Source: Eledone cirrhosa
Taxonomy: Eukaryota
DNA: 64,000 nucleotides
Reading direction: 5' to 3'
Assembly: GCA_964016885.1 (NCBI GenBank)
Contig: OZ024745.1
Location: 88,226,001 to 88,290,000, forward strand
Below, piece after piece: positions 3,897 through 42,100 of the stretch (positions within the stretch are counted from its first letter, which is position 1; each line of letters opens with the position of its first letter). The notes under the pieces were generated by a model. The model made no database searches and had not been told where the DNA came from. It saw only the letters and a list, made by a program, of their open reading frames with translations. The translations under genes and the position numbers were made by a program.

Positions 3897-3901
<5 letters not shown>

Positions 3902-4292
3902 TAAACGGAATAGAAAATGCTGACAAATTGTTCACAGATGAAAAATGGTTTAATTAGGAATAAAAGAGTATTAGTGATTGTATGGGTTAGTATTCAGTTG
4001 TGGTTTTAAGTTTTTAAGTTTTTAGCGGTTGCGCATTTCTAAATGCTTTTCAAAAATAATTTTGAGATAGAGTGTCCGTGTTGTTTGCTCTGATCTCACA
4101 GCAAACAACACGGACACTCTATCTAAAAATTATTTTTGAAAAGCATTTAGAAATGCGCAACCGGCAAAAACTTAAAAACTTAAAACCACAACTGAATACT
4201 AACCCATACAATCACTAATACTCTTTTATTCCTAATTAAACAATTTTTCAACTGTGAACAATTTGTCAGCATTTTCTATTCCGTTTACCAAT
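3897..4292. repeat. Fold-back module: about 193-bp inverted repeat with 10-nt loop, between (TA)n tracts
   Basis: 3897-4089 is the near-perfect reverse complement of 4100-4292. The same family recurs at 19947-20136 and 21515-21552. Confidence 0.95.
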
Positions 4293-13108: not shown

Positions 13109-13293
13109 TTTCTACTTTCATTTCACTCGTGTAGGACACCTCGGTTATTTTTCATTTTGTAAAAAAAAACCTCACTTTCTAATATATATATAATGAAGCT
13201 CTAGATAGAAGTGGCCACAAAAATAGATTAGAGTATATACCTTCTACTAAAAATACTGAAAGCATACAGCATAATATTACCAACAAACACCAA

Positions 13294-14265
13294 ATGAAAA
13301 GTACACACCTAAATGCCACCCATAATATACCCCAAAATACTAAATCTTCTAATATAAAGTATAGTAACCCTCAAAAAACTACTCATCATACAACTATAAT
13401 AAATATTAATAATAAAACTCCTAATAAAAAAGATAAAACACCTAAATCTACAAATATAACTAAAAATAGTTGTGGTGAGATCATTAACATTAATCCTCCT
13501 AGTAAAAATCATGATACAACATATAAAAATAATAAAAATAATAAACAACATAGAAACCGTAATAGACGAGTTACTTGGTATAATGCTCCTTTTAATTTAC
13601 AAGTTAAGGATAATATTGCTAAAAAAATTTTTTATATCCTTGAGAAAAACTTCCCGCCAAACCACAAATACCATCAAATCTTAAATAGGTCTACAGTTAA
13701 ATTCTCATACTCTACAACAAATAACATAAAACAAAATATAAGTGCATATAATGCATATAAATGTAAGAAAACCATAAGTATACCACCAGTACATCAAATT
13801 AACAATAATATCTCCTCAAATACAGAATTAACGAAAGGATGTAACTGTAGAAACAAAACAAACTGCCCATTAAAAGGGAATTGTCTTGTTAACAACATAG
13901 TCTATAAATGTAATGTTAAAACTAAAGATTCTATTTGCTCATATATAGGAGCTACCTCTAACAATTTTAAGACAAGGTATAATACCCACAAACATAGCTT
14001 TAAAAATGCCGCACTGGCTAATACAACATCTCTAGCAGAAAAAATCAATAGTTATAAAAATAAAAATATAAAATATGATTTGACCTGGAGTGTGCTCAAA
14101 AGAGCCACCCCTTATCAAAATAATAGAAAGGAATGTAGATTATGTTCCCAAGAACTATTTGAAATAATGAAGTCTAGGGATATCTTATTAAATAAACGAC
14201 AGGAATTAATTATATCGTGTAATCATAAACTAAAAAAAACATTTAAATATTATAAACCTAATTAA
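13294..14265 (+). pseudogene. PLE C-terminal GIY-YIG endonuclease (truncated ORF)
   Basis: WYNAPF, HQILNRSTVKFSYS, CNCRNKTNCPLKGNCL, IVYKC...YIG, FKTRYNTHKHSF, CRLC, LNKRQEL..SCNH. Confidence 0.9.
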
Positions 14266-15449
14266 TAACATTATTCTAGAATTTAATTTAATTTAAATGT
14301 TAGTTAACCTATAAATTTAATTTAATTAATATTTTATTACAGATGAGAAAATATTATGTAATCATAAATTTTGAAAAACCTTTAAATATTACTAATATAT
14401 ACTCAGTAATTTAATTTATAGATTAATTTTAATTTATTTAAACCTTTTTATTATAATTCTTTTACAGATAAAATATAACAAAATAATATCATGTATCCAA
14501 TGACGGAGAAAGAATTTTTAGTATTATAGACCTAATTAATATACATTTTGGAAATATATTTATTATTTGGTTTTAGTTTTAATCAACCTAAAATTTTAAT
14601 TTTAATTTGCTTAAAATTAGTATCCTTGTACAGACGAATTGCAGAATGTCATGTAATCATAGAATGGGATGTGTTTTGGATATATACCTAGTTAATATAT
14701 TCTGTGCAATTTTTTGAAAAAGATATGTATATGTATATGTATATGTATATGTGTGTGTTGTGTATGTGTATCTGTATGTATGTTTATGTGAGTATATATG
14801 TATATATGTGTATATATATGTATATATATATATATATGTGTGTATATGTATATATATGTGTATGTGTATGTATATGTATATGTATGCGTATTAATTTTGA
14901 TTTTTATTTGCATATAATTATATTATGCTATTGATGAAATACAATATCTGCTTTATGTATTGTATACCTAATTAACATATACTAATTAACGTATACTATT
15001 GAAATAAATATATAATTTTTAATTTAGTTAACATATAATTTATATGCTACTACTGATGTAATACTTTATTTTATTTTTATTTGGGTTTCTTTTCCCTATT
15101 ACTAAATTCATCTCCTAATATTGATACCATAACGTTATTAACTTTAATTTAGTTATAATGTAATTAATAATCTACTACTGTTTGACTTCATAATTCTGCT
15201 TCAAATATTATAAACCTAACTAATTTACACCTTAGAAATCAATATGTTGACTATCTTTGGTTTAGTTAACATATGATTAATGGTATACTTTTTTGTTTTG
15301 AGATGCATAGATTTCGTATTTCCTAGCACTGAAAATATGTAAGAACATACATTGAATTAAGATACGGAAAATATTATATGTTTCTTGAAACATATATTTA
15401 CTTTGATCCCCTTCTCCAAACCCCCCCTTTCCCCCATACTATTATCATC

Positions 15450-16042
15450 TGTATTTGTAAGCGTATATGTATGAATATATATGTAGGTGGGTGTCTATAT
15501 AGGTTTTGGTATTTATTTCTAAATATAAAAATACATATATGAGCATGTAAATATGAATGTAAGATTGAGTGTGTATATATGATTGTACATACATATGTAT
15601 GTATATATATGTATATATATGTATTATATATGTATGTGTATGTGAATGTGTGGTATGTATATGTGTATATATATGTATATATGTGTATGTATGTGTATGC
15701 TTGTATATAGGAATATATATGTGTGTATATATGTATGTATATGTATATGCGTGTTTGTATGTATGTGTATATGTGTTGTGTATATATTTGTATGTCTCTC
15801 TATTTATATGTTTATCTTCGTATCTATGTGATATATGTGTGTGTGTGTGCACGTATGCATATGTATGTGTTTGTGTGTGTTTGTATGTGTGTGTGTATAT
15901 ATGTGTATGTGCGCACACTCACATACACATATATATATATATATATATGTGAGTGTGTATGTGTGTCTGTGTGTGTGTGTGTGTGTGTATGTGTGTATAT
16001 ATATGTATATATATGTATGTATGTATATATATATATATATAG

Positions 16043-16077
<35 letters not shown>

Positions 16078-16187
16078 GGTGTCTATGTGTGAATATATGT
16101 CTTTATTCGTATGTGTGTATTTATGTATGTATATATTTATGTGTATGTATGTATGTGTATATATGTATGTATATATATATATATATG

Positions 16188-16226
<39 letters not shown>

Positions 16227-16552
16227 TATTCTTTATTATTATTGTAATATAACTTATGTGTATATGTGTATAAGTGAGGTTGTGTATGTATATATACTAT
16301 GTGTATATATAAGAGTAATGAAATATATATATATATATATATATGTGCATGTCTGTTTTTTACGTGTGTGTATATATATATATGTATGTGTATATATATA
16401 TATATATATATGTGTACGTGTGTGTATGTGGATATATATATATATATATATATACATGTGGGTGTTTGTATGTGTATTTATGGTGGTATGAGTGTGTGGA
16501 TATATATGTTTATATATATATATGTATATGTATATATATATATGAGTCTATA

Positions 16553-16611
<59 letters not shown>

Positions 16612-16958
16612 GTATGTGTATGTATGTGTATGTGTATGTATATATATGTGTGTGTATGTACGTGTGTGTATATATATATATCTCTATTAATGCGTGTGTG
16701 TATGTATATACATATGCGTTTTTTTATTATTATTTTCATTTGTATGTCTGGGTTTGGTGAGGTGGTATTGTTTTTTATGTGTATACACATATATGGAAGC
16801 GTATGTATTTATTTATATGAGTATAAGTAGGTGCATATGTATGTATGATTATATATCTAATTCTATGTATGAAGGTACATCTATATATATATATATATAT
16901 ATGTATATGCGTGTGTATGTAAGTTGTGTGTGTATGTATCTTTATGTCTATGTGAGTG

Positions 16959-16989
<31 letters not shown>

Positions 16990-17104
16990 ATATATGTATG
17001 TATATATATGTATATCGATGTGCGTATATGTATGTACATGTATGTACATGTATGTGTGTATGTATGTGTATGTATATTTAGATGTATGGGTATGTATGTG
17101 TATA

Positions 17105-17159
<55 letters not shown>

Positions 17160-17400
17160 ATATATATATATATGGATATATATCTTTATTATCTATTTTT
17201 TATATATATGTGTATGTGTGTATGTGTTGCGCGTGTGTGTGTGTGTATATATATCTTTTTATATGTGTATGTGTATGTTCGTGTAAATGTATGTGTGTGT
17301 ATGACTGTATAGGTATGTGTGTATGTGTGTATGTGTAAATATCTCTATGTGCGCGTACATGTATGTATGTGTATGTATATCTGTATGTGTATGTACATTA
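15450..17400. repeat. About 2-kb compound (TA)/(TG)/(TATG) low-complexity tract
   Basis: Almost uninterrupted alternating purine-pyrimidine sequence. Confidence 0.95.
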
Positions 17401-17980
17401 TATTATATTTATTATATTTTATTGTTTTTATTTTTTTATTTTTCTTAATTTATAGATACATTTATATTAGGCAGTCTGGTCTGACAATCTAATACTGACC
17501 CCTTCCCCCCCCTCCCACCTAATTTCTGTATCTTGATCTTGAAATGTGTGTGCCAGTGTTTTATGTGAGTGACTTAATTTCTATTTGCTTATGATTTTAT
17601 ATCCACATATATAAATGTGAGTGGGGGAGTGTGTGTGTTTGTATGTTCGTGGTTATGTGTATATTTATGCATATACGCGCATGTATGTGTGATTATACTG
17701 ATATGTGTGAGTATGAAAAAAATATATTTATATGCTTGACTCCATAAGTATCATTGCGCATCTTATCAGCGCATTAAGCTTACAGAGATATTAACCTTGA
17801 AATTTTGTGTTTGCATCCATCTTTTTAGTATACACATACAAATTATACACACATTATTGTAAAATATGTGTAAGGTTTTTACATGTATATACACACACCA
17901 AACTGCTTTTAACCCTTTGTGTTTTCATTGGTCAATTTTGAACTGATATTTTGAATTGTTGTTATTATCAATAAATATAC

Positions 17981-18135
17981 TTCATTATTTCTGAAGACGG
18001 CGTATATATGAGTTAGGTATGTATATTTAATCTTGATAATTTGTATAATTTTGTATAATTTTGTACATAGATCTGTTGAATATGCATACCAATTATAACA
18101 CATATATACCCTAGAAACGATCGTTAAATAGTGAA
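17981..18135 (+). ncRNA. Type I hammerhead ribozyme with greatly extended stem II
   Basis: ttcattattt-CTGAAGA-[116 nt]-GAA-ACGATCGT-T^aaatagtgaa: 10-bp stem I and palindromic helix III. The insert self-pairs (gtatatatg/catatatac and ggtatgtatatt/aatatgcatacc). Confidence 0.75.
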
Positions 18136-18320
18136 CTTTTTTTGTTTAATATAAGGAATTGTTTGTTCATTATTTGTTTAATATTTTATCTTGACTCTGT
18201 ATACCGTTTATCTTTCACCGAAAGTGGATTTTCATTACATCTCTTCTTTCCATGATATCCGGAATACATTGAGTTCTTCATACGGATTGGACACTACCGT
18301 AAACTCTTGGTAGATTTATC

Positions 18321-18378
<58 letters not shown>

Positions 18379-19884: not shown

Positions 19885-19945
<61 letters not shown>

Positions 19946-20169
19946 TAGTAAAAAGGAAAAGAAAATGCTGACAAATTTTTTCCCAGTGAAAAATAGTTTA
20001 ATTAGGAATAAGTATAAATTAATAATAACATTGGTTAGTATTCAGTTTTAGTTTTAAGTTCTTACCGGTTGCACATTTCTAATGCTTTTCAAAAGTAATT
20101 TTGAGATAGAGCGCTCGTGATGTTTGCTCTAATCTGATATATATATATATATATATACATAAATATTTG

Positions 20170-20253
<84 letters not shown>

Positions 20254-20363
20254 GTAATAAAATGAAAACGAAATTTCATTTCTCACTCTTAGTACGGCAC
20301 TTACTTAAATGTAAGTATGTATGTATACGTACATACATATATGTACACAGACGTACAGTAGCA

Positions 20364-20435
<72 letters not shown>

Positions 20436-20684
20436 TACAGGTACACATACATATATGTACGCATCAGTTTAGCGGACGCTTATTATAGCGCCCGCTTTGT
20501 TCGTTTGTAAACAAACTGAACAGCCTGAATTTATGAAATTTCGTTTTCATTTTATTATAACTCATCGTTTTCGGTGCGCCTGACCGATTTAACTCACTCG
20601 ATATGCAAATTAGGCTGCTCAGCCGTTAATTTTCATAAGGAAAGTATATACTTTCGAACGTTCAACTATCTGGCAGATGGGTAT

Positions 20685-20727
20685 ACGGTGCTGATGATAG
20701 CTAACAAGCTTGAAACTAGTACATCGT
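20685..20727 (+). ncRNA. Canonical minimal type I hammerhead ribozyme
   Basis: acggtg-CTGATGA-t-agc(taacaa)gct-t-GAA-ACTAGT-A^catcgt. Confidence 0.85.
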
Positions 20728-20880
20728 TCCTGTGTCAGTGTTGAACAAATAGGTGACGTGGTTGCCTTAACACCGTGCGGCATAAATTCAGGCTGTTCAG
20801 TTTGTTTACAAACGAACAAAGCGGGCGCTATAATAAGCGTCCGCTAAACTGATGCGTACATATATGTATGTGTACCTGTA

Positions 20881-20914
<34 letters not shown>

Positions 20915-21150
20915 TGCTACTGTACGTCTGTATACATATATGTATGTACGTATACATACATACTTACATTTAAGTAAGTGCCGTACTAAGAGTGAGAAAT
21001 GATATTTCGTTTTCATTTTATTACAACTCATCGTTTTCGGTGCACCTGACCGATTTAACTCACTCGATATGCAAATTAGGCTGCTCAGCCGTTAATTTTC
21101 ATAAGGAAAGTATATACTTTCGAACGTTCAACTATCTGGCAGATGGGTAT

Positions 21151-21193
21151 ACGGTGCTGATGATAGCTAACAAGCTTGAAACTAGTACATCGT
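21151..21193 (+). ncRNA. Canonical minimal type I hammerhead ribozyme (second tandem copy)
   Basis: Identical to 20685-20727 and 466 bp downstream. Confidence 0.85.
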
Positions 21194-21432
21194 TCCTGTG
21201 TCAGTGTTGAACAAAAAGGTGACGTGGTTGCCTTAACACCGTGCGGCATAAATTCAGGCTGTTCAGTTTGTTTACAAACGAACAAAGCGGGCGCTATAAT
21301 AAGCGTCCGCTAAACTGATGCGTACATATATGTATGTATACCTGTATGCATATATATATATATATATACATATGCATGCTACTGTACGTCTGTATACATA
21401 TATGTATGTACGTATACATACATACTTACATT

Positions 21433-21519
<87 letters not shown>

Positions 21520-21725
21520 TTAGAGCAAACATCACGAGCGCTCTATCTCAAAATCATAACATATGTAGTTACAGAAGAGATGGAATAGTTTCGGAACACT
21601 GTGATTATAATACGTTCTGGGTTTAAGAATTATACGAATAAAAAGGAGAATTAGACGAAAGTTCTTATATATATACATATATATATACATGTGTATATAT
21701 ATATACATATATATATATATCATTA

Positions 21726-23937: not shown

Positions 23938-24031
23938 TATGTATATTTGTATATATATATATATGTATATATGTATATATATATATATACTGCATAATCA
24001 AGAATCTCTCCGGAAGTAACCCCATTACAAT

Positions 24032-25069
24032 GTGGCATATTGGATAAGTTGGTCTAAAGCCCAACGAAACTCTAATCACCCCAGATCTGTTAAAAATACT
24101 ATAGTGAACGCTGTTCAAGAACGAATTTCAAGAATTTCATCTAATAAAAATATATTTGATGAAAAAGCGCAGTATTACAACGAAGCATTAGCTAGAGCTG
24201 GATATAGAAATAAAATTAAATACATCGATAATAATAATTGTTTCTACTTTAGGCACAAGGCCAGCAATTACCCAAATAATAATAATAATAGGCAAACTAA
24301 CCAAAATAATAACAATTTCAATTTCAACTTTAACAACTATAATAGAAATCATTACAATAATTCCAAAAGCCGAAAAAGAAATAGAACTAGAAATATATTA
24401 ATGTTTGCTCCCCCTTTCTCACTAAATATTAAAACCCCTATTGCTAAACTATTCTTTAAAGCTCTTGACACACGCTTCCCTAGAACACATAAATATCACT
24501 CAATTTTTAATAGACACACCACAAAATTAACTTACTCGTCCACCAAAAACTTAGCACAACATATTAATAGAATTAATAATAGGAATTTAAAACCTAACCA
24601 AAATACCAATAATAACCCAAACAATATTCAATTAAATAACTGTAACTGTAGAAATAAATCTAACTGTCCGTTAAGTAACAACTGCTTAGCTAAAAATGTA
24701 GTGTACAATTGTAATGTTAAAACTAATTTAAATTCATTTAACTATGTTGGTTCCACCTCTACAGAATTTAAATTTCGCTTCAATAATCATAAGAATTCTT
24801 TCACAGATCCAAACAAAAAATCTTCAACTTCGCTATCTAGCCTACTATGGGACCTAAAACGAGATAATATTAAATATTCGATGAATTGGAATATTATCTC
24901 ACAGGGTACTCCTTTTAATTCCTCTTCAGAAAATTGTGATCTTTGTATTGAAGAAATATTCTTTATATTAAAGTCCAAAAATTCCCTTAATCTGAGGAAC
25001 AATTTATTCAGTTGCTGCAGACATAGATTGAACTCAACGTTTAAATATAAATATAAATTTAAAATGTAG
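24032..25069 (+). pseudogene. PLE RT thumb plus GIY-YIG endonuclease (truncated ORF)
   Basis: SNHPRS, RISRISS, YNEAL..AGY, CNCRNKSNCPL..NCL, VVYNC...YVG, FKFRFNNHK.SF, CDLC, CRH. Confidence 0.92.
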
Positions 25070-26544
25070 TATAATTAATTAAGTAATTTTAGTTAATATA
25101 TAGAACCTGTCGATAATCCATTAGATTCCTTCACCTTTTTCTTTTTAAACTTTCTTCCTAAATATAAACATGGATATAATAAACTACTCTAAAATGTCTA
25201 TACTTCCAATGTATTAAATAAAATCATTGGGTTTTTAAAATTTTTTACATCTTTTAAATTATTTTTATTTGTTTTGATTATGATAGCTTCTCATAACTTT
25301 CACAAGTCTACCCTCTCAATATTTTGATTGAGATATACGCAGGATAAATTTCTATACTAAATATATAAAACATATTATTTTAACTTAAGATACTCTATAG
25401 TGTTTTAATGATATTTAATGCTTTGATATTTCTAGATTTCTTTCGACTATATAGTTGCATTTTAAATGTTTATTGTTATGGTTATATTTACAAATTATAA
25501 CCCTTTGGTAATTTATTGATATTGGATTATCTCTATACAAATGCATATGTGTGTATTAACATGCATAGAAAGTGTTATAGATGTTTTGTGTTTGTATATG
25601 TGTCTGTATATATACATGAGTGATGCATGAGGACGCACGCAAATATTTATTATACCTATGTTATATATGTGTGTGTATATATCTATGTGGTTAAGAGGTA
25701 TGTTGCAGATGTGCATAATATTAAACACATGAATGTTAATCGTATATATGAGGACATGATTGTTAATCGTATATATTTGTATATATAAACTGTGGAATTT
25801 TTATAACACAATGACTGTATAACAGTGATTAAGAGAAATCATTTACGTTTTGTATGGCTATATTTTCAGGACGTGCGTATCTATATGTATGTATATATAT
25901 ATATGTATTTTTATGTCTTTGCATAAAATACTAATCTCTATACTAAGGGTACATTTTGAACTCAGATTTTGGTATATTGATCTCAAGTCTCTAAACTAAA
26001 CATATGGTCATTATTGAACAATGTTTAATTTCTCAAATTATATATCTATGTCCTATTCATGAATATTGATACTTATATTTATATTTTTATTATTCATTTC
26101 ATATAAATTGTTAACTTAACTTAATATGACATGACGTAAAGTTGTCACTGTCCCCCTCTCTCTATATAGTATTTCTCTCTCTTGAGTTTCTCTTTCTGTA
26201 TGATGACTTGATATCTCTCTTTTGCTTTCCTTTGTTTTTCTTATTCCTTTGTTTTTCTTATTCCTTCCTTTTCTTTCTTTTTTATTTCCTCCTATCTTTA
26301 TCTATCTCTTTCTTTTCTCAATACTTTTCTCTCTCTCTCCGATATTTCTCCAGGTTTTCTTTCTCTTTTCTTTCTTTCTCTCTCTCTGTCTTTGTTCTTT
26401 TCTCTTTCTTTCTCTCCGTCTTTTTCTAATTGTGCTTAACACTATGACTTATTATATGAACAAATCACTATCCAGACAGCCTCCAAAACTAATGGTTGTA
26501 TTTTAAAGGGTACGTCAAACCTATTTGTAAAACTGTTATATATT

Positions 26545-26610
26545 GTATTTTGTCTGATGAAGGCATACCATAATTTAATGTGGTATCCTTGAAATATGTA
26601 TAATGAAATA
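26545..26610 (+). ncRNA. Hammerhead-like motif in PLE pLTR
   Basis: CTGATGA-agg(c)atacca...tggtatcct-t-GAAATATGTA. Stem II is clear and stem I is imperfect. Confidence 0.7.
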
Positions 26611-26938
26611 AATATGGTTTTATAAATATCGTTTCCATTTATTAATATCGTATATCTACTCCAAAAATTTGTCGAGTTATAAAAATTTGTCGAGTTATAA
26701 AAATATTTACTTGTTGTATCCCAACAATTTTAAATAGAACTTTTGCATATATATATATATATATCAGAAATTGGGAATATAAAACGTATTCTTTTCGGAA
26801 TCTGAATTCTGTGTAGGGGGAAAGAAAGTTTATATAGGGGGGAAGCCAAAGTAGTTTTTCAATGAATTATGTCGTGAAAAAAGTAAGATACCAATGTTAT
26901 ATATTACTTTCTGTCAAGTTAATAAAATACGTATAGCA

Positions 26939-27074: not shown

Positions 27075-29680
27075 AGTTTTTAGTAAATAATTAGCGTTAA
27101 ATATAAATAGGACCGAGCAGGAACTGATAGATAAAGTAGAAGAGGCAATTAGAAGTGGCAACGTAGCCAGCGTGCTAGCAACGAGAACGGCCTTGGACCA
27201 GTTCTTCGACGCAAAGCACGAAGGCTGCGTTGTCAGAAGCAAAATACATGCTCTGGGTAACGAGGGAGCCAAACTGTTAGCTGGGCCCGGGTGATGGAGG
27301 CAAAAAGTGGCAACAAGTCCACGATTCGAACTTTGAAGGACCACGTCGGACGCGTGAGACGTGAACCGAAGCAGATGTGCGCTGCCTTTCAGCGGCATTT
27401 TGCTCAGCTGTTCGGGCAAGGCGGCGCACCGGGACGGACTATGGATTTCGGTCCATACCTCGACGGCCTACCGCGACTCTTGGACAGTGAGGCGAAGTTC
27501 TGCGAAAAACCGATTTCAGCCGCTGAGATAGGGGACGCGCTGAGCCAATGCGGCAAACGCAAATCTCCTGGTCTTGACGGTCTACCCTACGAATTCTACG
27601 TAGCAATGCCGGACTTGTTCTCCAGTCTCCTGGAAGCGGTCTACTGCAACTGGCAGCAGAACGGGAGAATTCCAAGTTCTGTGACCAGGGGCGTAGTCAC
27701 ACTAGCCATGAAGGACGAGAATAAGCGGGATGACATAGGCAACTTCCGGAGTTACAGATTTTGGCCAAGGTGTTGGCAAAGAGGCTGGCGCTTGTCGTCG
27801 AAAACCTGGTGGGAGAAGCGCAGACATGCGCAATCCCCACCAGTCCATACACGACATCCTCCACCTCATGCAATACATCATTGAGAGGGTAGGGTGTAAA
27901 CCCGGCTTCGGTGGCCCTGATCAACTTGGATCAGTCTAAGGCTTTCGATAGGGTTGACCATCATTACCTGGATGCGGTGCTCGAGGCGCAGGCTTCCGAC
28001 AGTTGTTCAGGGGCTGGATTGCTGCAATTCACAACAACAACATCTGCTCAAGGGTCAAGGTGAACGGCTACCTCTCGGAGCCGTTCCATATCATGCGATC
28101 CATTCGACAGAGATGCCCTCCTTCCTCCCTTCTGTACGTACTGACTCTCGAGCCACTACTGCGGAAGTTGGAGCTATTGCAGGGCATCCCTCTGGAACCG
28201 GGACTGCGGAAAGCGGCGTCGGGCTGCACCGACGACGTGACATTAATGGTGCCTAGCACCTCGCAAATCGAGGAAGTTGGCATCTTACTGAAGGAATACG
28301 AAAGGTTCACAGGAGCGAAGCTGAACCGGGACAAGTCCATCGGTTTGCAACTCGGATCGTGGAGAGGCAAACCGATGTCTTCCGATGGCATCGTCGGACG
28401 CTAGACGGAAGGACTGGTAAAGCTGCTCGGGGTCTGGTTTGGTCCGGACCTCCAGGTGGAGAAGAACTGGAACGAGGTGACGGTCAAGGTGTTTGCACTC
28501 ACCCAGAAGTGGGCCGAGGGAAAACTTTCCTTGAAAGGTCTAGCGGAGGTGGCGAACACTTTTATAGCGTCCATCATCTACTACCGCTTGACCGTCGTGC
28601 CTTGTCCAGCCAAAATGCTCACCAAAATGGAGCGCGCGCTCTCCCCATTCCTTTGGAATAAGTGGGCTCCTTTGGTGAGAAAATCCATCTGCTGCCAACA
28701 CCCTTCCAACGGAGGGATGGGGTTGCCGTGGATGACGATGCGCAAACACGCGCTCAGGCTGCGGCATCTCTCCGTATTCCTCACCCACAACCTGTGTGGG
28801 TCCCGTTCATGAGGCGAGCATCCCTCGACTCGTCTCGCTGACCGAGCTGCAGTCCTGGGTCAAGCAAAGACCGAGAAAAATGGGCTACTGGCACATCGAA
28901 TGTGCTCAGTCGCAAACAGCTCTCTGGCAGGCGGACCCGGCGATCAGTGGAGACTCCACTTCGTCATTCTATAGACGGTTGGTCCGCAGCAAGTGCGACG
29001 ACGCGCTCGGAGAAACTCTAGGCGTAGTGGAAGACGAACTGGCTAGTCTGTTCGGTAGGACCTTCCGCCCGGGACCGATGGACAACTTCCAAAATCCCTA
29101 GCCTGGCAGTGCTACCGAGGAGCTCTACCAGTTCGAGACAAGCTCTACAGACATGGGCGCCCGGGCAGAGACCCTTCGAAAAGATCTGTCCGAGATACGT
29201 GCGAGACGAAGAAACCGTCGCGCAGGCTTTCATACACTGCCCGTGCGTTACAAACCTGTGGGGCTATGTAGAACTACTATTGTCGCGGGTGGGACCAATC
29301 CGGTTGACTACCGAGTCCATTGTCATGATCAAACCGCCACCCTCCTTCAAAAACGAAAGAGAGGCAGTTTTCCTTTGTGTGATAGCTATGGCGAAAGAGG
29401 GTTGTATGGTGGACGAGGTTAAAAAGGCTGAGATCCGACACCTTTCTCTCCGGACAACAACTGATTCTTTTTTTCAAATACAACTTTGGAAGAAGAATCG
29501 GGATGGGGAGAGAGGTGCTGTACCCCAGCAAGTTTTATGAAAGGTGGGTGAAAGTAACGAGAATGGCCCGAGTGAATGGGCCTTCTCTCTATATCAGCCT
29601 GTAGTTTGAGGAGTACGAAAAATGTGTACAACGCTTCGTACTCCTAGAGATGAGGGTTGCACATTTTTTCGGGGTTATGT
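27075..29680 (+). mobile_element. Tx1/L1-clade LINE, 5'-truncated, frameshifted ORF2
   Basis: KSPGLDGLPYEFY, INLDQSKAFDRVDH, SIRQRCP.S.LLYVL, TDD, KLLGVWFG. Homologous to 56013-58600 and 61400-64000. Confidence 0.92.
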
Positions 29681-29727
29681 GTTTATATTAAATAAATGGA
29701 AACTATATTTATAAAACCATATTTATT

Positions 29728-29786
29728 CTATTATATATATTTCCAGGGTACCAAAAATATGTTACGCTATCATCAGATAAAATACA
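29728..29786 (-). ncRNA. Hammerhead-like motif in 3' pLTR
   Basis: Reverse complement: CTGATGA-tagcgtaac...ggtaccctg-GAAATATATA with an imperfect stem II. Confidence 0.6.
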
Positions 29787-32700
29787 AAATGTTTTATATA
29801 CATTTGACATGACCAAGGATGATATACCTTAACGGTTCAAGTTATCCCTGGAAAGTGAAGGGAAGAGAGAAGAAAAGTCAGATATTTAAAATTATTAATA
29901 TGAGTATGCAAATGATATGTATATTAAAGGGCTGAAAAAACGTTATTTTAGACGATATGGAAAAGATAAATATTTATGATAAGGAAAGAAGAGAAAGAGA
30001 AAAGAATAACGTTAAAATGGGGGAAAAGAGTTTTGTTACCTATATTATGAGTTATAAAATGATATGAAGAATTATGGTTGTAAGTATTTATATCTTATTA
30101 CATTAGGATAGGTTATATGTATATAAATATCTCTCTATATATTAATAAGTTGCGTATGCATTGATAGTTTATATAAACAAATATGAGTTGTGAAAGATGT
30201 TGAACATTTTATTTTCAAGTTGTGAGATTAGAATAATTTGTGGATTGAAACATTTTCAATATTGAGAATGTTTTTAGAATATTGTTAATTTAACGAAGCT
30301 ATATCAATTATCAAACTAAAATTGTTAAAGAAGAAGGAAAAGGAAGACCACTTGAACGTTTATTTAGGGAGAATATATTCAGACATTTATCTATATTTAT
30401 ATGGAGAATTATTTATCTTATTATAATAATATATAAATATGTATATATATATTTTAATAATAGCATATGTGTTTTTTTTAAAGAATAGTTTGTTTATAAT
30501 ATGAGTTACGAGGGGTGTTGATTTATAAATAAATAAAATAAATAGGTGTTTGTTCCTAATATAAGTTACTAGGGATGTTGATTTTATGCAAATAAATAGG
30601 TAGTTACAATTTATAAGATTAAATTAACGGAGTTATGTATTAAACAGTTTTTATGATTGAAAGAAGGAAAAATAACTCCAATTCTTTTATTAATCGCTAG
30701 TGTGGGATTAATTATTTATTCTAAAGAAATATGAATAATTAAACACCATCCTGAATAGGATATATTTTACCTAAAACCGTTAATGGTTATTAATATACAT
30801 TTAAAAATTAGCTTTAGAGGGTGTCATTAGAAAAATAAAGCTTTAGGTGTCATTAGAAAAATAAAAAATTAAGAAAAAAGAATTAAAGAATTTAAAAGAA
30901 TTAAAATTAAAATTAAAATTAGAATTATATAGAAGTACATAATGTAGAAGTACATAAATATCTATACATACACACGTATATATATATTATAAGACATTTT
31001 AAAGATATTATGATTTAGAGATATTAATATATTAAAGTATTAAAAATATAAAATGTTAGAACAGATAAGATCATTTTGGAGATTAATAGGAATATTATAA
31101 GTATATTATAAGTTACATATAGTTCTGAATGTAGAATTTTGGCGATGTTTGCGACAACTAAATATTTCTGTTCTAAGATTAATAGAGTTTTTACAATTAA
31201 TTATATAAAAAATTTCTTTAATACATAATTTACAGAATCTTGATTAGGCCGCGTTTCGGTAAGCAGGTGCTTTTATCTAAAACCTTATTTTTAAAGGGCA
31301 GTTTGATTTAATTCTAAAGTTACATTTTACGGAGTTGTTGTTGCTCAGAACGGTACTATTATTCTGGATATGGCTAGAAATATTATTATTACTATTATGG
31401 TTATTTTGGTTAGGGTTTAAATTTAAGTTTCTATTATTAATTCTGTTTATATTTTGTGCAATGTTCATAGTAGTAGAGTAGGATAGTTTTATAGTATGTC
31501 TGTTAAGGATTGAGTGGTATCTGTGGGTTTTAGGAAAACATTTGTCTAGTGCTTTAAAGAATAGCTTTGCTAAAGGTGTTTTAACGCTTACTGAGAATGG
31601 GGGTGAGTACCAAATAATATTTCTAGTTCTTTTGTTTGTTTTAGAGTTTAAGTTAAATTGTTTATTATAATTAATAGTAGGGTGATTTGCCTTATTATTG
31701 TTTTTAATGTATTTAATTTTATTCGTATACCCTGTTCTATTTAAAGCTTCATTATAATATTCAGCCTTATCTTCAAACATATTTTTATTAGCAGAGATGC
31801 GTGAAATTCGTTGCTGGACAGAATTGACGATAGTGTTCTTAATAGAACTAGGATGATTAGAGTTAAAACTACGTAATTTAGATTCTCATTGATTTTATAG
31901 AATGGATAGTAGAGCCCTGTGCTAAAGTTTAATGTTACGTCTAAAAAGTTAACGATTTTATAGTCATTCTCTATTTCTAACTTAAGGTTATAAATTATTG
32001 GAGAATTGTATTATGGATTTTCTTTTCCTATTAATTTGACAATTATTATGGTTTTCAATTAAAAGAAACATATCACCACGATATAAACCACCGGTCATCT
32101 CTGGCATTTTTCTATGCAGCGTATTATTAATAAATAAGCCCACACGATCCGTTATTTGCGGCGAGTCGGATGATCCCATGGTGATATCAAAATTATTTTT
32201 CCTATCGGCTCTTGTCCAGAGATGATTGTTGAATTCAATTAAAGTTTTCCGTGCAATTAAAATGATATGCATTTCTTCACTAGATAAAACTGTATGTTTA
32301 GATGCATAGATAAGAGCCCTATTAAGTAAACTAGGAGTAATAGAGGAGTAGTAATTTGCAATATCAATTTAAATGATCTTTTTGTTATGTTTAAATTGTA
32401 TGTTATTGAACCAATCTATAACCTCATTAGTACCGTTCAATAGTTTTAGGTGTGATTTTTTTTAAAGTTGTGGTATGATTCTATCTAATATATGTTTACT
32501 AATTATCCCTAAGTCTGATTTAGATGGTGCTATAAGTTTGACCGGTAGTTCTATTTCAAAGTTTCTTTTGTGGTCTTTCAGGTTAATTTTCAGTCTTCTA
32601 GGTATAAAGGGTTCATCCTATTTTGGATGCCTAATTTATGAATAATTTCTGAATTCTCTCTATTTAACGTTGCAAGATCTTCATTAGTTGTTATTCTGTA

Positions 32701-33330
32701 ATTTTTTCTGAGTTCCTTCAATATATGATAATTGTATTCGTCCCTTTGCATTTCGTATAGATTGTTCGTTTTATCAGATTTAATTAGGATCTTCTCAGTT
32801 TTTTCAAGATTGTCTATATTATTCTTGAGGCCATTACGGAATTCCTGGCCTACAAATTGTTTTTTCTTGAATTTGATGTTTTGTATAATCGACATTACAT
32901 CCTTTTCAAATTCCATTAATAGTTTGTTGCTAGGAAGATTCTTTTTAGATTTGAAGATAATATCGAAGTTGTAACTGGATTTATTTATTTTTTCCGATTT
33001 TCTATCGAAATGGAAGGAACGCCATCTAAGTCTTCGTATAAAGGAGTCAGATTTCTCAATGAGTTGTTTTAGATACTCATTGTTCTTAGGTAAAGGGACA
33101 TATTTTAGAGATGAAGAAATTCTAATGAATTCCATTATTTATCAATCAGTTATAATTTAAAATGCTCAACATTAAAGGAGCTATTTATATGTAGAAGAAA
33201 TATTTAATTTGTTGGAAATCCAACAAATATAGATGTTTACAACTGATTCAAAGCACTCGACAAATTTCTGGAGTAAGTATTCAATTGATATTAAATAAAT
33301 GGAAACTATATTTATAAAACCATATTTATT

Positions 33331-33390
33331 CTATTATATATATTTCCAGGGTACCAAGAATTTTGCTACGCTATCATCAGATAAAATACA
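33331..33390 (-). ncRNA. Hammerhead-like motif in 5' pLTR
   Basis: Reverse complement: CTGATGA-tagcgtagc...ggtaccctg-GAAATATATA. Confidence 0.6.
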
Positions 33391-33905
33391 AAATGTTTTA
33401 TAATTAGTTGACATGACTAAGGATGATATACCTGAAAGGTTCAAGTTATCCCTGGAAAGTGAAGGGAAGAGAGAAGAAAAGTCAGATATATAAAATTATT
33501 AATATGAGTATGCAAATGATGTGTATATTAAAGGGCTGAAAAAACGTTATTTTAGACGCTATGGAAAATGTAAATATTTATGATAAGGAAAGAAGAGAAA
33601 CAGAAAAGAATACCGTTACTTTGGGGGAAAAGATTTTTGTAACTATAAAATGAGTTATAAAATGATGCGAAGAATTATGGCTGTAAGTATTTTTATCTTA
33701 TTAAATTAAGATAGGTTATATGTATATAAATATCTCTATATATATTAATAAGTTGCGTATGCATTGATAGTTTATATAAACAAATATGAGTTACGAAGGA
33801 TGTTGAACATTTTATTTTCAAGTTGTGAGATTAGAATAATTTGTGGATTAAAAAATGTTCAACATTTAATATCAATTGTATATATATATATATATAAATA
33901 TAAAT

Positions 33906-33989: not shown

Positions 33990-36900
33990 TAGGGCGGCTA
34001 AAATTCCCGGGATCCATGGACGGGTTCTCTCCAGCGGTCTCTGTCCCCCATTAACGCTGCCATGTCCTGCGTCTCCAACAGACCAGTGTCTGTCCTTAGG
34101 GCATCAACATACGTTAACCTTGGTCTTCCTGCTCCAGTGCTCCCACAGGAGCACTGAGTGCAATGTCAACTCTGGATGTCGGTGAGCATGTCCAGCTAAC
34201 CGCAATCTCCTCTGTGTCACTTTTGAGCTCACTTATGGGAGGCTGCCATACATGTCTGAGTTTTTCATCCTCAGTGTATACTGATTAATGTTCAGAGCCA
34301 TCCTCACCATTCTCGTGTAGCACCCATCCACAATCTGAGTTAGTTTCTAGGTCAGTGTCCAAGTCTCAGACCCGTACAGCAGCACAGACTCCACTACAGC
34401 AATGAAGAGGCGGATTTTCAGGTCTTTACGAAGCTCCGACTTCCACACCGATTTCAAGCGGTAGCACGCCGCCCAGGCTATGCTCTTCCTATCAACCACA
34501 TCATCTTCCGTATTCCCAATCTTTGCTCTCAAATACAGGAAGTCCTCAACCAATTCTAGCGCCCCCCTACATTAGTGATCCCCTCTGGCTTTTCAACATT
34601 CTCTACCAGATATTTTGTTTTAGTCTCATTCATTCTCAGCCCCACACTCATCGACACAGTCTCAACCTCCTGCATCACATCCTCTGCCTCCTTCATTATG
34701 TCGTCGGCAAATTCAGCATCTGATATCTTTTTCGCCTTAACTCTCCTGCTCTGAGCCGGTGCTACAGTAATGCCAGAGTCCTGGTGTTTCTCCAGTGCAA
34801 GGCGCATACACTGGTCCACTACGATGATAAAAAGGTAGGGAGCCAATGCATCTCCCTGGAACACTCCAGCTAGTATCTCAAAGAACTCTGTCATCCCATC
34901 AGGTGTAATGCCTTTGGCTTTGGTGTTGGTGTAGAGCAACTATCTTCTTGGGGATTGCATAAGCCTGTAAGATCTTCATCAGGCAGTGACGGTCGATAGA
35001 ATCGAAACCATCCTAAAGTCAATGAAAACCATGACCGCATAAGGCACTTTTATCTAGCCCCCTCTAATATACTCCTCAGCATCAGGATGTGACTGATAGT
35101 TGATATTCCCCCTCTGAAGCCGTTCTGGTTGTCCCTGAGCTTCTACTCCTTCTCAGGCTGGATCCTGTTAAGAATCATCCTGTTGAGGGTCTTTGTCAGA
35201 GGTGACGTCAGTGAGATCCTCCTGAAGTTGTTGGTATTAGAGAGATCTCCCTTCTTTGGCACTGGGACGATGTTACTGATCCCCCACTGATTCGGAGCAA
35301 CTCCTTTCTTCAGTGCCCCGTTACAGAACCCCAGGATGATATCATCAAAATCACACCTCTTCATCACCTCTGATGCCAGTCCATCTACTCCATGAGCCTT
35401 TCACTCCTTGATCTTCTTCTTGGCTCCCTGAAGCCCCTCTCTGGTGAAGGGCGCTCTGTCTCAATATCCAGTTCTTCAAACACCCACCTGATCTCCCCAG
35501 TGCTCTAGGCTGTGGAGGCGGCTCTCCTAGTCGGGTCCTAAAATGGTCTAGCCATTTCCTCTTCCTTTCCTCGGGCCCTGTTCCCTGTATCTGACTCGAA
35601 CACCTTCTCTTCCTTCCTGTGATCTCGTTGATGATCATCCAGCTCTCCTTACATCCAGATCTGTCAACCGCTCTCTCCACACTTCTGATCTTCTCTATCA
35701 GTGCCTCCTCTGTGGCCTCAGTGTAAGCAGTACAGAGTTCTTCACTCATCACCTCCACAGTCTCCATCCTCTCCTCCGTAGGATAAGCATAGATTTGGTC
35801 CTTGGCAGCTTTCAGGTGTTCTATGGCTGCACACACTTTTGGGTTTGCAGGGCTGACGTGCTTCCGTTTATTCTTTTTCCTCGGCACCAGGGTCTCACTT
35901 GCTTCCGCCACTGCATTGGTGAAGTGCCCGTACCTCCTCGTCATACTCTACTCAGTCCATCCAATCTCTCTCTCCTCTGTCTCTCCATACAGACCACTGA
36001 ACCTGTTCCTCACTTCCACTGTGAACCTCTCCTGTCGCTTATCATCTTCCTTGAAATATCCCAAGTCATAGAGTGCTCTCCGGTGCTGAGCACTGCTCTT
36101 TTTTAAGCTCACCCGGACCTCACTCATAACAAGCCCGTGGTCACTACCAAGTGAAGTGAAATAGTTGTATGGTTATGTGTTCAGAACACTATTCCGCCAC
36201 TTTTTCTTTACCAGAATGAAATCAATCTGGGACTTGGACAGGTGCATATCTGAGATGTAGGTCCACCTCTTCCCCGGATACTTCCTAAACCTTAGGTTGG
36301 TCGCTATCAAGTTCGCCTCCAGCAGGGTGTCTCCCAGTAGTCTTCCATTTCAGGTGGTGTTGTTATGGAAGGACCAGCAAGGATCTTCACTGCCCTCCTC
36401 ACTCCTCACTCAGATGTGCATTGAAGTCCCCCAAAACAAGCAGGATCTTGTGTGCTTGTGTGGTGTTGACAGCTCAACACACCTTCTCATGGAACTCTTC
36501 CGCACTCACATCACTGTCTCCCTCGGTTGGACTATAGGCTGAGATAACTGTCAGTCTTGGGTTTCCATTGAATGTTACCCTCAACACTCGCGGTGAGACA
36601 GGCATTATTTCCCTCACCAATAGACTGGTTTTTGTGCTGAAAACAAAACCCACTCCTCCCACTGCAACATTGGTCATGTTCCTTACTGCCGATGTGGTGA
36701 TGAGCTGGTTCCTCTTCCCAATCATCACACTCCTCACGGGCTCATCGTGTAGGATCCTGTGTTCTTGGATCGCAAGTATCTGTATACCACTCTCCTCGAA
36801 CATATGTCCCAAACTCCTCTCGTTTCTCAGCGTCCGAATAGTCCTCACATTCAAAGTGCCCATTTTGATGGCTCTTCTGCAGGACAAAACTGCATTCTTT

Positions 36901-37250
36901 ATATTTGTCTCAGAAACAACTGATCCATCATCCACTGGCCCTCCGTGTGGCTCTAATCCAGCAGAGTCATAACGTCCAGACTGCTCCTTGACAGTGTAAT
37001 TAGGGGCTCTAACTCTAGTGCTGTTAGATTGACTCTCCATATTTCTTTTCAAAGGCTGACAATACCTTTCCGGCGCCACTCGAACAAGGTAGTTATTTAA
37101 CCGATAAATGGGGCCCTAACAGGTACTACTACTCCGGGCCGAGCAGACCTGAGAGTTATGACAACTAAGGGGCAACTCTACATTCCCCACAGCTCCTGAA
37201 CTCCCGAACTGGAGCCTTGCCACTGGATGTAATTAAATGTCATACCCATA
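33990..37250 (-). mobile_element. RTE-clade LINE (APE endonuclease plus RT), near full length, pseudogenised
   Basis: MGTLNVRT, AIQEHR, GGVGF, ISAYSPT, VPKKGDLS..NNFR.ISL, GVFQGDALAPYLFIIVVD, FADD, SVLLYGSETWTLT. Confidence 0.92.
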
Positions 37251-40700: not shown

Positions 40701-42100
40701 AAAATTTGATGAAAGCTATTGTTTTGCTCAATATTGAGCAACTGGTTGAAGTTCATTTCAATGTTTAACAGATTTCAATTTGCCAATTCCTTATGAAGAA
40801 TTGCGGCAACGTGTCTTAGCATTGGACATGAGATTGCAGCTTAGACGGTTGCCACTCGATCGGAGGGAACTATTCCAGTTTGATCCACTGGAACAGCAAC
40901 GTATTGTGGATGAACGTATGCCAATGTTGACCCAATCTCAGAGAGAATTGGTCGATGGCGTTCTCCACTCGATTTCCACTAATGAGCAACTTTGTGCTTT
41001 CATAGATGCTCCAGGAGGCACCGGAAAGACCTTCTGTTTCAACACTATGTTATCGGCAGTCAGAGCTCAGAGGAAGATTGCCCTCCCTGTGGCCACCAGT
41101 GGGATCGCTGCCACTTTGCTGAGTGGTCGAAGGACCTTCCACTCATGCTTCAAGGCTCCATTGGCTCCGGATAAGTTGAGAGTCTGTAACATTACAGGAC
41201 AAAGTGAACTCGCGGGCCCTATACGCCATACGTCTCTGATTATTTGGGACGAGGCCCAATGGCACACAGATATTTGCTGGAGGCATTGGACAGAACTTTG
41301 AGAGATATTTGCGGTAGTGACCTGCCATTCGGTAGTAAGACTATCGTTCTTGGTGGCGATTTCAGACAGGTGCTACCAATTGTTAGGAATGCTCAAAGAG
41401 CGCAAATTGTCGATGCATGTCTGAAAAAGTCCCCGTTGTGGCGCCTTTTCAGAGTTTTGCGATTACACGATAATATGCGACTTCGTATGTTCGGGCAAAA
41501 TGAAGAGGCTGAGACATACGGCCGGTGGTTGATGCAGTTTGGAAACGATGAATTTCCAAACGTTGGTGATAATCAGACTGTAAGAATCCCAGACCATTTG
41601 GTCATGCCACTGGACCGCCAAGCATTGATTGACTGGGTCTTCCCTAATTTGAATGCTTTTTGGCAGAATATCTCCTGGATATCGGAACGCGTTATTCTAA
41701 CTCATACGAATGCAACGGTCGATGAAATAAATTCACAAGTAGCCGGAATGTTTCCTGGAGAGGAATGGTTGACCGTCAGTGCGGATGCAATGGAACCTAA
41801 TCAGAAGAACAATATGGATGTTCCGACTGAGTATCTGAATTCACTTCAAATACCTGGAATTCCCCCACATATTTTGAGGTTGAAAAATGGTATGCCGATT
41901 ATTTGGCCTTCTCCATGACTGTCAACAAGGCACAGGGACAGACTTTCAAGCGAGTCGGTGTCTGCTTGAATGATCCAGCATCCAGCCATGGCAAATGTTG
42001 CTGCATCTCGAGTCTGCTATCCTGATGGGATAACATTTGCAATTGATACCACTAACAGAGGAACAACCCTGAATATTGTCTATAATGAAGCTTTGAGCTG
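37800..42100 (+). pseudogene. Helitron Rep/Pif1-helicase with multiple stops, frameshifts and deletions
   Basis: CPHCGALLW...CC.KG zinc finger, LPSSFIGG.RYM..YQDAMAIV..GKPDLF.T.TC, VIEFQKRGLPH, KYLFKYVYKG, DAPGGTGKT, IIWDE, GGDFRQVLP. Confidence 0.95.

What the first reader, a model, noticed from the sequence alone, without database searches (positions are those of the whole stretch)
20250..21432. 466-nt tandem unit with identical canonical hammerheads: predicted monomer or circular RNA
Two near-identical units each hold a perfect minimal HHR (cleavage after 20721 and 21187). The ACTAGT palindrome would allow a dimeric HHR fold between them. Read-through transcription should release a 466-nt non-coding monomer, as described for non-LTR retrozymes. 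An inverted partial copy precedes the dimer, and the high identity suggests a young insertion.
Basis: partly seen in the sequence, partly recalled or inferred. Interest (0 to 1): 0.75.

Follow-up and report, generated by a model that had tools for sequence, protein, structure and literature searches.

The report
Hammerhead retrozyme riding Penelope-type retrotransposons
This is one young copy of a very abundant, protein-free jumping repeat that carries a predicted self-cutting RNA motif and is likely pasted into TA repeats by the enzyme of a Penelope-type retrotransposon; the kind of element is known, but its back-to-back insertions and two hybrid copies give an unusually clear record of how it likely moves.

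Summary
In detail: 1.9 direct units (97.7% alike), hammerhead cores with predicted cuts after 20721 and 21187 (466 nt apart), and an inverted partial copy. The motif is a canonical type I hammerhead with a U·U at the base of helix II, not a 'perfect minimal' one. The locus is one of a large family: 10,391 exact cores in this 3-Gb genome, 40,598 with sister families. The inverted copy is part of the insertion. In 22 of 22 scorable back-to-back insertions one arm ends at a short site and the other about 57 nt further on; 73 of 74 ends join TA runs. This is the Penelope-like (PLE) signature. Both arms share one haplotype, and copying runs through the cut site (14,292 of 15,100), which fits a circular or uncut template. 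Two loci are hybrids with a young Hydra-clade PLE that follows the same end rule. No RNA data were available, so transcription, cleavage and circles are untested. Verdict: a new member of the animal non-LTR retrozymes. The scan had already noted this kind of element, and its two-end rule, on other DNA of this genome.

The parts
20137..20251 (.). Left target microsatellite: (TA)n, a 15-nt spacer, (TA)n, then (AG)18
20249..20535 (-). Inverted arm: 5'-truncated copy (equals 20781-21029) whose 3' end is the LONG end; no hammerhead; internal AT run 20367-20432
   Evidence: end class
20249..20305 (-). The tail of about 57 nt that separates the long end from the short end; the last 1-3 bases are shared with the (TC)n run
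20533..20535 (.). Head-to-head junction of the two arms, 3 bases shared by both
20533..20998 (+). Direct unit 1 (466 nt), with internal (AT)14 at 20884-20911
20670..20738 (+). Type I hammerhead 1: core 20691-20721; helix II 20698-20711 (U·U first pair, 6-nt loop); palindromic helix III 20715-20720; extended helix I with a 3-nt bulge; predicted cut after 20721
20722..21187 (+). Predicted 466-nt cut-to-cut monomer (linear or circular RNA; untested)
20999..21434 (+). Direct unit 2, incomplete, ending at the SHORT 3' end (equivalent to 20972)
21136..21204 (+). Type I hammerhead 2, identical to the first; core 21157-21187; predicted cut after 21187
21435..21515 (.). Right target microsatellite (TA)n

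Best explanation
This is a young insertion of an abundant non-coding repeat with a conserved type I hammerhead fold, likely a non-LTR retrozyme copied into TA microsatellites by the reverse transcriptase-endonuclease of a Hydra-clade Penelope-like element. Steps: (1) inferred: tandem copies are read through and the hammerheads, probably folded as a dimer, cut out a monomer of about 420-570 nt (466 here); (2) inferred: the monomer is closed into a circle; (3) shown at DNA level: new copies end at two fixed sites about 250 and 305 nt past the cut site, both joined to TA runs, one of each kind per two-armed insertion; inferred: the PLE enzyme nicks both strands of a TA run and primes one cDNA at each site; (4) shown: copying passes through the cut site and all units of a locus share a haplotype; inferred: both cDNAs run round the same circle or the same pool of RNA; (5) shown: the two arms meet head to head at variable points, mostly with 0-7 shared bases; inferred: the cDNA ends are joined there. 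The best candidate driver is the young Hydra-clade family called PLE-E here (inferred from two hybrid loci).
For: Copy number 10,391 exact cores and 40,598 for the looser pattern, control 11. Covariation across sister families: 4 of 4 helix II pairs and 3 of 6 proximal helix I pairs change on both sides, core invariant, 93% of cells paired against 31-45% for slid controls. End rule: 22 of 22 scorable two-armed loci are short+long, out of 30 junctions in 49 clusters. 73 of 74 scored ends are followed by a TA run. Median divergence within an arm 0.80% (32 loci), across arms 0.75% (24 loci), between loci 4.2% (1128 pairs); 8 variants private to a locus are shared by both arms in 6 of 36 loci. Read-through: 14,292 of 15,100 copies of the 25 nt after the cut keep the 6 nt before it; of the first 100, 90 are exact, 9 are point variants and 1 is a junction; 1 of 68 mapped 5' ends lies within 5 nt of the cut, 1.7 expected. 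Hybrids: L081/L251 joins retrozyme units directly to PLE-E RT-EN sequence, with a retrozyme long end and a PLE-E short end; L078 has a PLE-E long end and a retrozyme short end. PLE-E copies are 96-99% alike, keep RT-EN frames open over 557 aa in 5 of 30 loci, and are short+long in 8 of 8 scorable two-armed loci. Tandem and inverted layout, one-sided tail and TA targeting are described for PLEs and Hydra (PMC8557442).
Against: No RNA evidence at all. U·U at the base of helix II and a 1-2 bp helix III predict weak cleavage as a monomer; in bioRxiv 10.64898/2026.07.22.740005 only 1 of 9 Xenopus dimers cleaved in vitro. No sequence similarity was found between the unit and the ends of the autonomous PLEs seen here, so descent from a pLTR is not shown. 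The tail (about 57 nt) is longer than the published 30-40 bp and shorter than that of PLE-E (about 95 nt). Long arrays also grow at DNA level: L117 holds an exact two-unit block duplication, and a 31-hammerhead array of a sister family has variants that recur in non-adjacent units. Hybrids also form with other elements (L072, L091, L013, L023), and L110 looks long+long, so the hybrids do not prove a single driver; nested insertion plus deletion could give the same picture. 83 private variants sit in one arm only, which fits later mutation but gives no support for one template. Shared haplotypes would also arise if one source locus dominated the RNA pool.
Confidence: 0.8

Rival explanations
1. 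Same non-autonomous PLE passenger, but the template is an uncut linear multimer (or precise template jumps between linear RNAs); the hammerhead cuts rarely and circles play no part in copying.
For: Read-through of the cut site fits uncut RNA as well as a circle; the hammerhead is predicted to be weak; hybrids between families show that the enzyme changes templates; block duplications occur.
Against: Arrays of 8-10 near-identical units on both arms (L113 0.28%, L068 0.30%, L115 0 of 2034) need a source at least as long, or repeated jumps within one haplotype while between-locus divergence is 4.2%. The hammerhead fold is kept by compensatory changes across families, so it is under selection. Circles are reported for coral, mussel and axolotl retrozymes (PMC7229834).
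Confidence: 0.3
2. The unit is just the terminal repeat (pLTR) of an autonomous PLE, left by 5' truncation, not an independent element.
For: Architecture is that of PLE ends; a hammerhead in the pLTR is typical (PMC4209133); the genome search scores only the best candidates, so a rare master could be missed.
Against: Head-to-tail arrays of the unit alone, up to about 10 units, with no ORF between; many haplotype lineages; in about 130 family loci checked with tblastn no PLE ORF followed the tail in register; PLE-A, -B, -C and -E have unrelated ends and other hammerheads.
Confidence: 0.07
3. A satellite or minisatellite spread by DNA recombination only; the hammerhead is a relic.
For: Block duplications and scattered shared variants in long arrays.
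Against: Dispersed copies on many chromosomes, two fixed 3' ends at TA runs, variable 5' ends and the short+long rule are marks of reverse transcription.
Confidence: 0.04
4. The duplication is an assembly artefact.
For: The locus is surrounded by long microsatellites; no long read was checked; no public contig laid spans the stretch.
Against: The units differ at five positions and in AT-run length; the same layout with the same end rule recurs at 22 other loci.
Confidence: 0.02

Closest known systems
Metazoan non-LTR retrozymes (Cervera and de la Pena 2020, PMC7229834; passages and sections 14, 15, 17 read)
   Same: Short non-coding tandem repeats, one type I hammerhead per unit, thousands of copies, highly self-paired monomer, co-existence with PLEs. 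Palindromic helix III like axolotl HHR_Amex1; U·U at the base of helix II like HHR_Amex2.
   Different: Unit of about 420-570 nt, above the 170-400 nt given for invertebrates, with a variable internal AT run; both weak features in one hammerhead; expression and circles untested here. In the parts read, the paper does not describe inverted arms, fixed ends or TA targeting (0 hits for 'inverted').
Retrozymes as non-autonomous PLE derivatives (Li, Clavereau, Pollet 2026, bioRxiv 10.64898/2026.07.22.740005; parts 1-3 of 5 read, supplements not seen)
   Same: Same definition (at least two tandem units with complete hammerheads) and same proposed driver.
   Different: Their link rests on co-occurrence and pLTR similarity in vertebrates. 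Here no pLTR similarity was found; the link rests on shared insertion geometry and hybrid loci.
Hydra-clade and other EN+ Penelope-like elements (Craig et al. 2021, PMC8557442, passages and section 11; Arkhipova et al. 2013, PMC3846280, passages)
   Same: Partial tandems, inverted 5'-truncated copy, tail at one end only, (TA)n targets, hammerhead near the 3' end.
   Different: No ORF; tail about 57 nt against 30-40 bp; the rule is strict here (22 of 22).
[quoted passage not shown]
   Same: Type I, palindromic helix III region, proposed dimer fold and circular template.
   Different: This motif has the canonical helix sizes and lacks the long helix II and the extra base before helix II of the minimal type.

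Membership tests
Non-LTR retrozyme | Tandem repeat with at least two consecutive units bearing complete type I hammerheads | tested here: met
   arrays up to about 10 units elsewhere
Non-LTR retrozyme | Non-coding, no LTR/PBS/PPT layout | tested here: met
   longest ATG frame 44 aa (+) and 67 aa (-) on the doubled monomer; no ORF or LTR pair in the loci; PBS/PPT not searched separately
Non-LTR retrozyme | Dispersed, high copy number | tested here: met
   10,391 exact cores, many chromosomes
Non-LTR retrozyme | Monomer size 170-400 nt (invertebrates) or 51-972 bp (2026 survey), stable self-paired fold | tested here: met
   466 nt: inside the wider range, above the narrower one; z = -9.1
Non-LTR retrozyme | Self-cleavage in vitro | not testable with these tools
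   only fold and covariation
Non-LTR retrozyme | Expressed as linear and circular monomers | not testable with these tools
   no run on record as RNA was listed
Canonical type I hammerhead | Core CUGANGA / GAAA / UH and helices I-III | tested here: met
   core invariant in 23 aligned copies, helices I and II covary; copies were selected on the core pattern
Canonical type I hammerhead | G10.1-C11.1 pair at the base of helix II | tested here: not met
   U·U here and unpaired in 15 of 23 rows, G-C in 7 rows of a sister family; the same departure is reported for the weakly active axolotl HHR_Amex2
Minimal PLE hammerhead (min-HHR) | Long helix II (7-8 bp), short helix I, unpaired base before helix II | tested here: not met
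   4-position helix II, extended helix I
Penelope-like insertion (non-autonomous) | 5' truncation, partial tandems, inverted 5' copy | tested here: met
Penelope-like insertion (non-autonomous) | Tail at one end only | tested here: met
   22 of 22 scorable loci; length about 57 nt rather than 30-40
Penelope-like insertion (non-autonomous) | (TA)n target (Hydra, Naiad) | tested here: met
   73 of 74 ends; at this locus the long end meets (TC)18 before the TA run
Penelope-like insertion (non-autonomous) | Sequence shared with the pLTR of an autonomous partner | tested here: inconclusive
   none with the four PLE families examined; other families not surveyed
Autonomous PLE | RT and GIY-YIG ORF | tested here: not met
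   no ORF in the unit

The most novel reading that the evidence does not exclude
The family is a rolling-circle retroparasite in which one hammerhead-made RNA circle is primed at two fixed internal sites by a paired Hydra-clade PLE enzyme, one cDNA from each strand of a nicked TA run; the strict short+long rule holds even across hybrids with the autonomous element, which would be direct genomic evidence that a named PLE mobilises an animal retrozyme and would explain the PLE tail and inverted repeats as products of asymmetric two-site priming.
Probability: 0.35. Interest if true: 0.65.

Novelty: new member of a known kind. Interest (0 to 1): 0.42.

Why it matters
How PLEs make their tandem and inverted insertions and their one-sided tail is still open (PMC8557442), and PLE-driven mobilisation of animal retrozymes is a hypothesis supported so far by co-occurrence and pLTR similarity in the papers read. 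This family offers thousands of young, short, complete insertions with two fixed ends, plus hybrids with an autonomous Hydra-clade element, so the mechanism can be tested by counting and with a 466-nt RNA in vitro. The single locus itself is an ordinary copy.

Tried and rejected
Rfam at gathering thresholds: 0 hits in the window. Pfam: 0 families for 3 PLE proteins; they were classed by motifs instead. RNA evidence: no RNA holder listed; the four runs laid were contigs of unrecorded kind and say nothing on expression; two of them (other organisms) laid 0 records at 85%. PLE-A, the very active 6.2-kb element with a copy at window 13183-18323, was my first candidate driver: no similarity to the unit, one end site in 28 of 30 loci, and my guess of a second end 56 nt upstream failed, 0 of 30; an end further upstream was not excluded (L121 hints at one). 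PLE-B and PLE-C of the window: older (91-99% and 78-91% protein identity among 150 hits each), ends unlike the unit. A linear, hammerhead-cut monomer as template: rejected, no pile-up of 5' ends at the cut. The 40-bp inverted repeat outside the locus as a terminal repeat of the element: rejected, found only at this locus of 30 and part of another repeat. A period-3 pattern suspected in array L116 did not hold when all variable sites were printed. Look-up of earlier notes by sequence: nothing. Literature: 'Penelope-like + octopus + hammerhead' gave one paper; 'retrozyme + octopus' gave two listings, one of them (PMC10886601) seen only as a listing; these searches did not show this family in print, but supplements (for example files S1/S2 of PMC8557442, all of the bioRxiv preprint) and Repbase/Dfam were not seen and may hold it.

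Full report
Observation. The window is AT-rich animal DNA full of TA microsatellites; its genome G000 has 3.0 Gb. Earlier scan notes call the genome octopus-type; I did not test that. The tandem is real: 20533-21434, period 466, 1.9 copies, 97.7% alike over 440 columns. Both units carry the same hammerhead core, at 20691 and 21157, with predicted cuts after 20721 and 21187. The stretch 20249-20535 is the reverse complement of 20781-21029 with two substitutions and a longer AT run. It shares 3 bases with the start of the direct arm. The whole lies between TA runs.

The ribozyme. The first pair of helix II is U·U. By the definitions in PMC4209133 (passages) this is a canonical metazoan type I motif, not the minimal PLE type. 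The axolotl has one family with a palindromic helix III and one with the U·U; both cleave weakly as monomers and much better as dimers (PMC7229834 section 15). A hand-built dimer of this motif scores -57.2 kcal/mol against -40.4 for two active monomers; this is a computed energy only. A looser pattern finds 40,598 sites, control 11, in at least three related families. In 23 aligned copies the core is invariant (they were selected on it), all 4 helix II pairs and 3 of 6 proximal helix I pairs change on both sides, and 93% of cells pair against 31-45% in slid controls. The rows are related, so these are few independent events. The monomer folds at z = -9.1 and has no frame over 67 codons. Rfam found nothing.

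The family. The exact 36-nt core occurs 10,391 times. I fetched 49 of the 51 clusters formed by the first 100 hits on contig C1 as an unbiased set (L065-L113; the other two were already among the top hits) and 11 further loci. Copies are 5'-truncated at variable points and end at one of two 3' sites about 57 nt apart, called short (window 20972/21434) and long (about 21029). 73 of 74 scored ends are followed by a TA run. The 49 clusters hold 30 head-to-head junctions; in 22 both outer ends could be scored and all 22 pair a short with a long end; 8 could not be scored (broken at the internal AT run, beyond the fetched stretch, or another family). The window's locus follows the rule: long end left, short end right. 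Sister families show two ends as well (seen in a few loci, not counted). Partial tandems, an inverted 5'-truncated copy, a tail at one end and TA targets are the published marks of PLE insertions, the last especially of the Hydra clade (PMC8557442; PMC3846280).

Template. All units of a locus, on both arms, share one haplotype: medians are 0.80% within an arm, 0.75% across arms and 4.2% between loci. Eight locus-private variants are shared by both arms in 6 of 36 loci; 83 lie in one arm only. Copying does not stop at the cut site: 14,292 of 15,100 genome copies of the 25 nt after it keep the 6 nt before it, and of the 10 exceptions among the first 100, 9 are point variants and 1 is a junction. 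One of 68 mapped 5' ends is within 5 nt of the cut, 1.7 expected (loci were chosen for holding a core). A linear cut monomer is therefore not the template; a circle or an uncut multimer is. Against reading every array as a rolling-circle product: L117 has an exact two-unit block duplication, and a 31-hammerhead array of a sister family has variants recurring in non-adjacent units.

Driver. The genome is rich in Hydra-type PLEs. PLE-A (copy at window 13183-18323) has 150 of 150 scored hits at 100% protein identity and many 830-codon frames, a unit of about 6.2 kb with its own long-helix-II hammerhead (read from the printed sequence) and the Hydra motifs. It shares no sequence with the unit and shows one end site in the region tested. 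A tblastn screen of the family loci led to two hybrids with another family, PLE-E. In L081/L251 an inverted retrozyme arm with the long end and 1.8 direct units run without a TA spacer into a 5'-truncated PLE-E RT-EN region that finishes at the PLE-E short end. In L078 an inverted PLE-E long end and a PLE-E piece run directly into a retrozyme unit that finishes at the short end. PLE-E is young (96-99%), keeps long open RT-EN frames in 5 of 30 loci and pairs short with long ends in 8 of 8 scorable two-armed loci, one more unscorable. Both hybrids obey the rule, which chance would give about one time in four. Two more hybrids pair a retrozyme long end with the short end of a third element (L072, L091), one looks long+long (L110), and some join sister families (L013, L023). 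So a Hydra-clade enzyme is the likely driver and PLE-E the best candidate, but not the proven one.

Mechanism. Shown: fold conservation, copy number, two fixed ends at TA runs, the short+long rule, shared haplotypes, read-through of the cut, hybrids. Inferred: transcription, dimeric cleavage, circularisation, priming by the PLE enzyme on both strands, joining of the cDNA ends. My odds: retrozyme-type PLE passenger about 0.9; hammerhead active as a dimer about 0.7; circle as template about 0.6; PLE-E as main driver about 0.4. No RNA run was listed, which is no evidence either way.

Comparison and verdict. It meets the testable criteria of a non-LTR retrozyme (PMC7229834; bioRxiv 10.64898/2026.07.22.740005, parts 1-3 of 5 read) and works like a non-autonomous PLE. 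It fails the G10.1-C11.1 criterion of the canonical hammerhead and is not a minimal one. My three searches aimed at this family or mechanism did not show it in print; supplements and repeat databases were not seen. The scan's own unchecked notes report the same kind of element and the two-end rule at eight other places in this genome; I reached my reading before that look-up and treat the notes as leads only. New member of a known kind; interest 0.42, owed to the strict end rule and the hybrid loci rather than to this copy.

Noticed in passing
window 13183-18323 (+); full units in L061-L063: 5'-truncated copy of a very active Hydra-clade PLE (PLE-A): 812-aa RT + GIY-YIG ORF, unit about 6.2 kb with a 3.5-kb microsatellite-rich 3' region, 4,659 exact copies of its end motif, and a hammerhead with about 130 nt inserted in helix II (window about 17990-18135). 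Pfam gives no hit.
   Followed up: partly
window 24020-26750 (+), 29700-33900 (-), 51048 (+): Older Hydra-type PLE copies (PLE-B, PLE-C) and a further PLE-type end, each with its own hammerhead-like core (26554, 29776, 33380, 51048); PLE-C has the core at both ends, 3.6 kb apart.
   Followed up: partly
window 19945-20136 and 21516-21554; related copy 3898-4266: The retrozyme sits in a TA run at the centre of an older back-to-back repeat; this gives the 40-bp inverted repeat around the locus.
   Followed up: partly
G000:C1:5738327-5752443 (L155, L156, L195, L196): Sister family with a 466-nt unit and no internal AT run: 31 matching hammerheads in one 14-kb arm plus an inverted arm, short end on one side and long end on the other; only 20 variable columns, several recurring in non-adjacent units.
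   Followed up: partly
window 20603-20637 and sister families (L128, L142): A hairpin whose 5' strand reads as an octamer-like motif (name recalled, not tested) is kept, with the same internal mismatch, in families only about 75% alike; it could be an RNA binding site or a DNA promoter element.
   Followed up: no
L013 (about 660-750), L023 (about 1950-2580): Hybrids between the main family and sister families, one with a same-strand switch right after a sister hammerhead.
   Followed up: partly
window 51386 (-), 52776 (+), 5112 (-), 5876 (+): Further hammerhead-like cores in other small TA-flanked repeats, some in back-to-back pairs.
   Followed up: no
L004, L013, L029, L065, L072, L091; window about 52160 and 52850: A very common TA-flanked palindromic element (called D) with two ends about 80 nt apart, one copy running into a Hydra-type ORF start (L004); probably the end of another PLE family.
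   Followed up: partly
window 38400-41900: Broken frames resembling a Helitron Rep/PIF1 helicase (motif likeness recalled, not tested).
   Followed up: no
window 27261-29540, 56013-59453, 61609-63259; 34556-37115: Broken non-LTR retrotransposon frames (RT and endonuclease-like; family names not tested).
   Followed up: no
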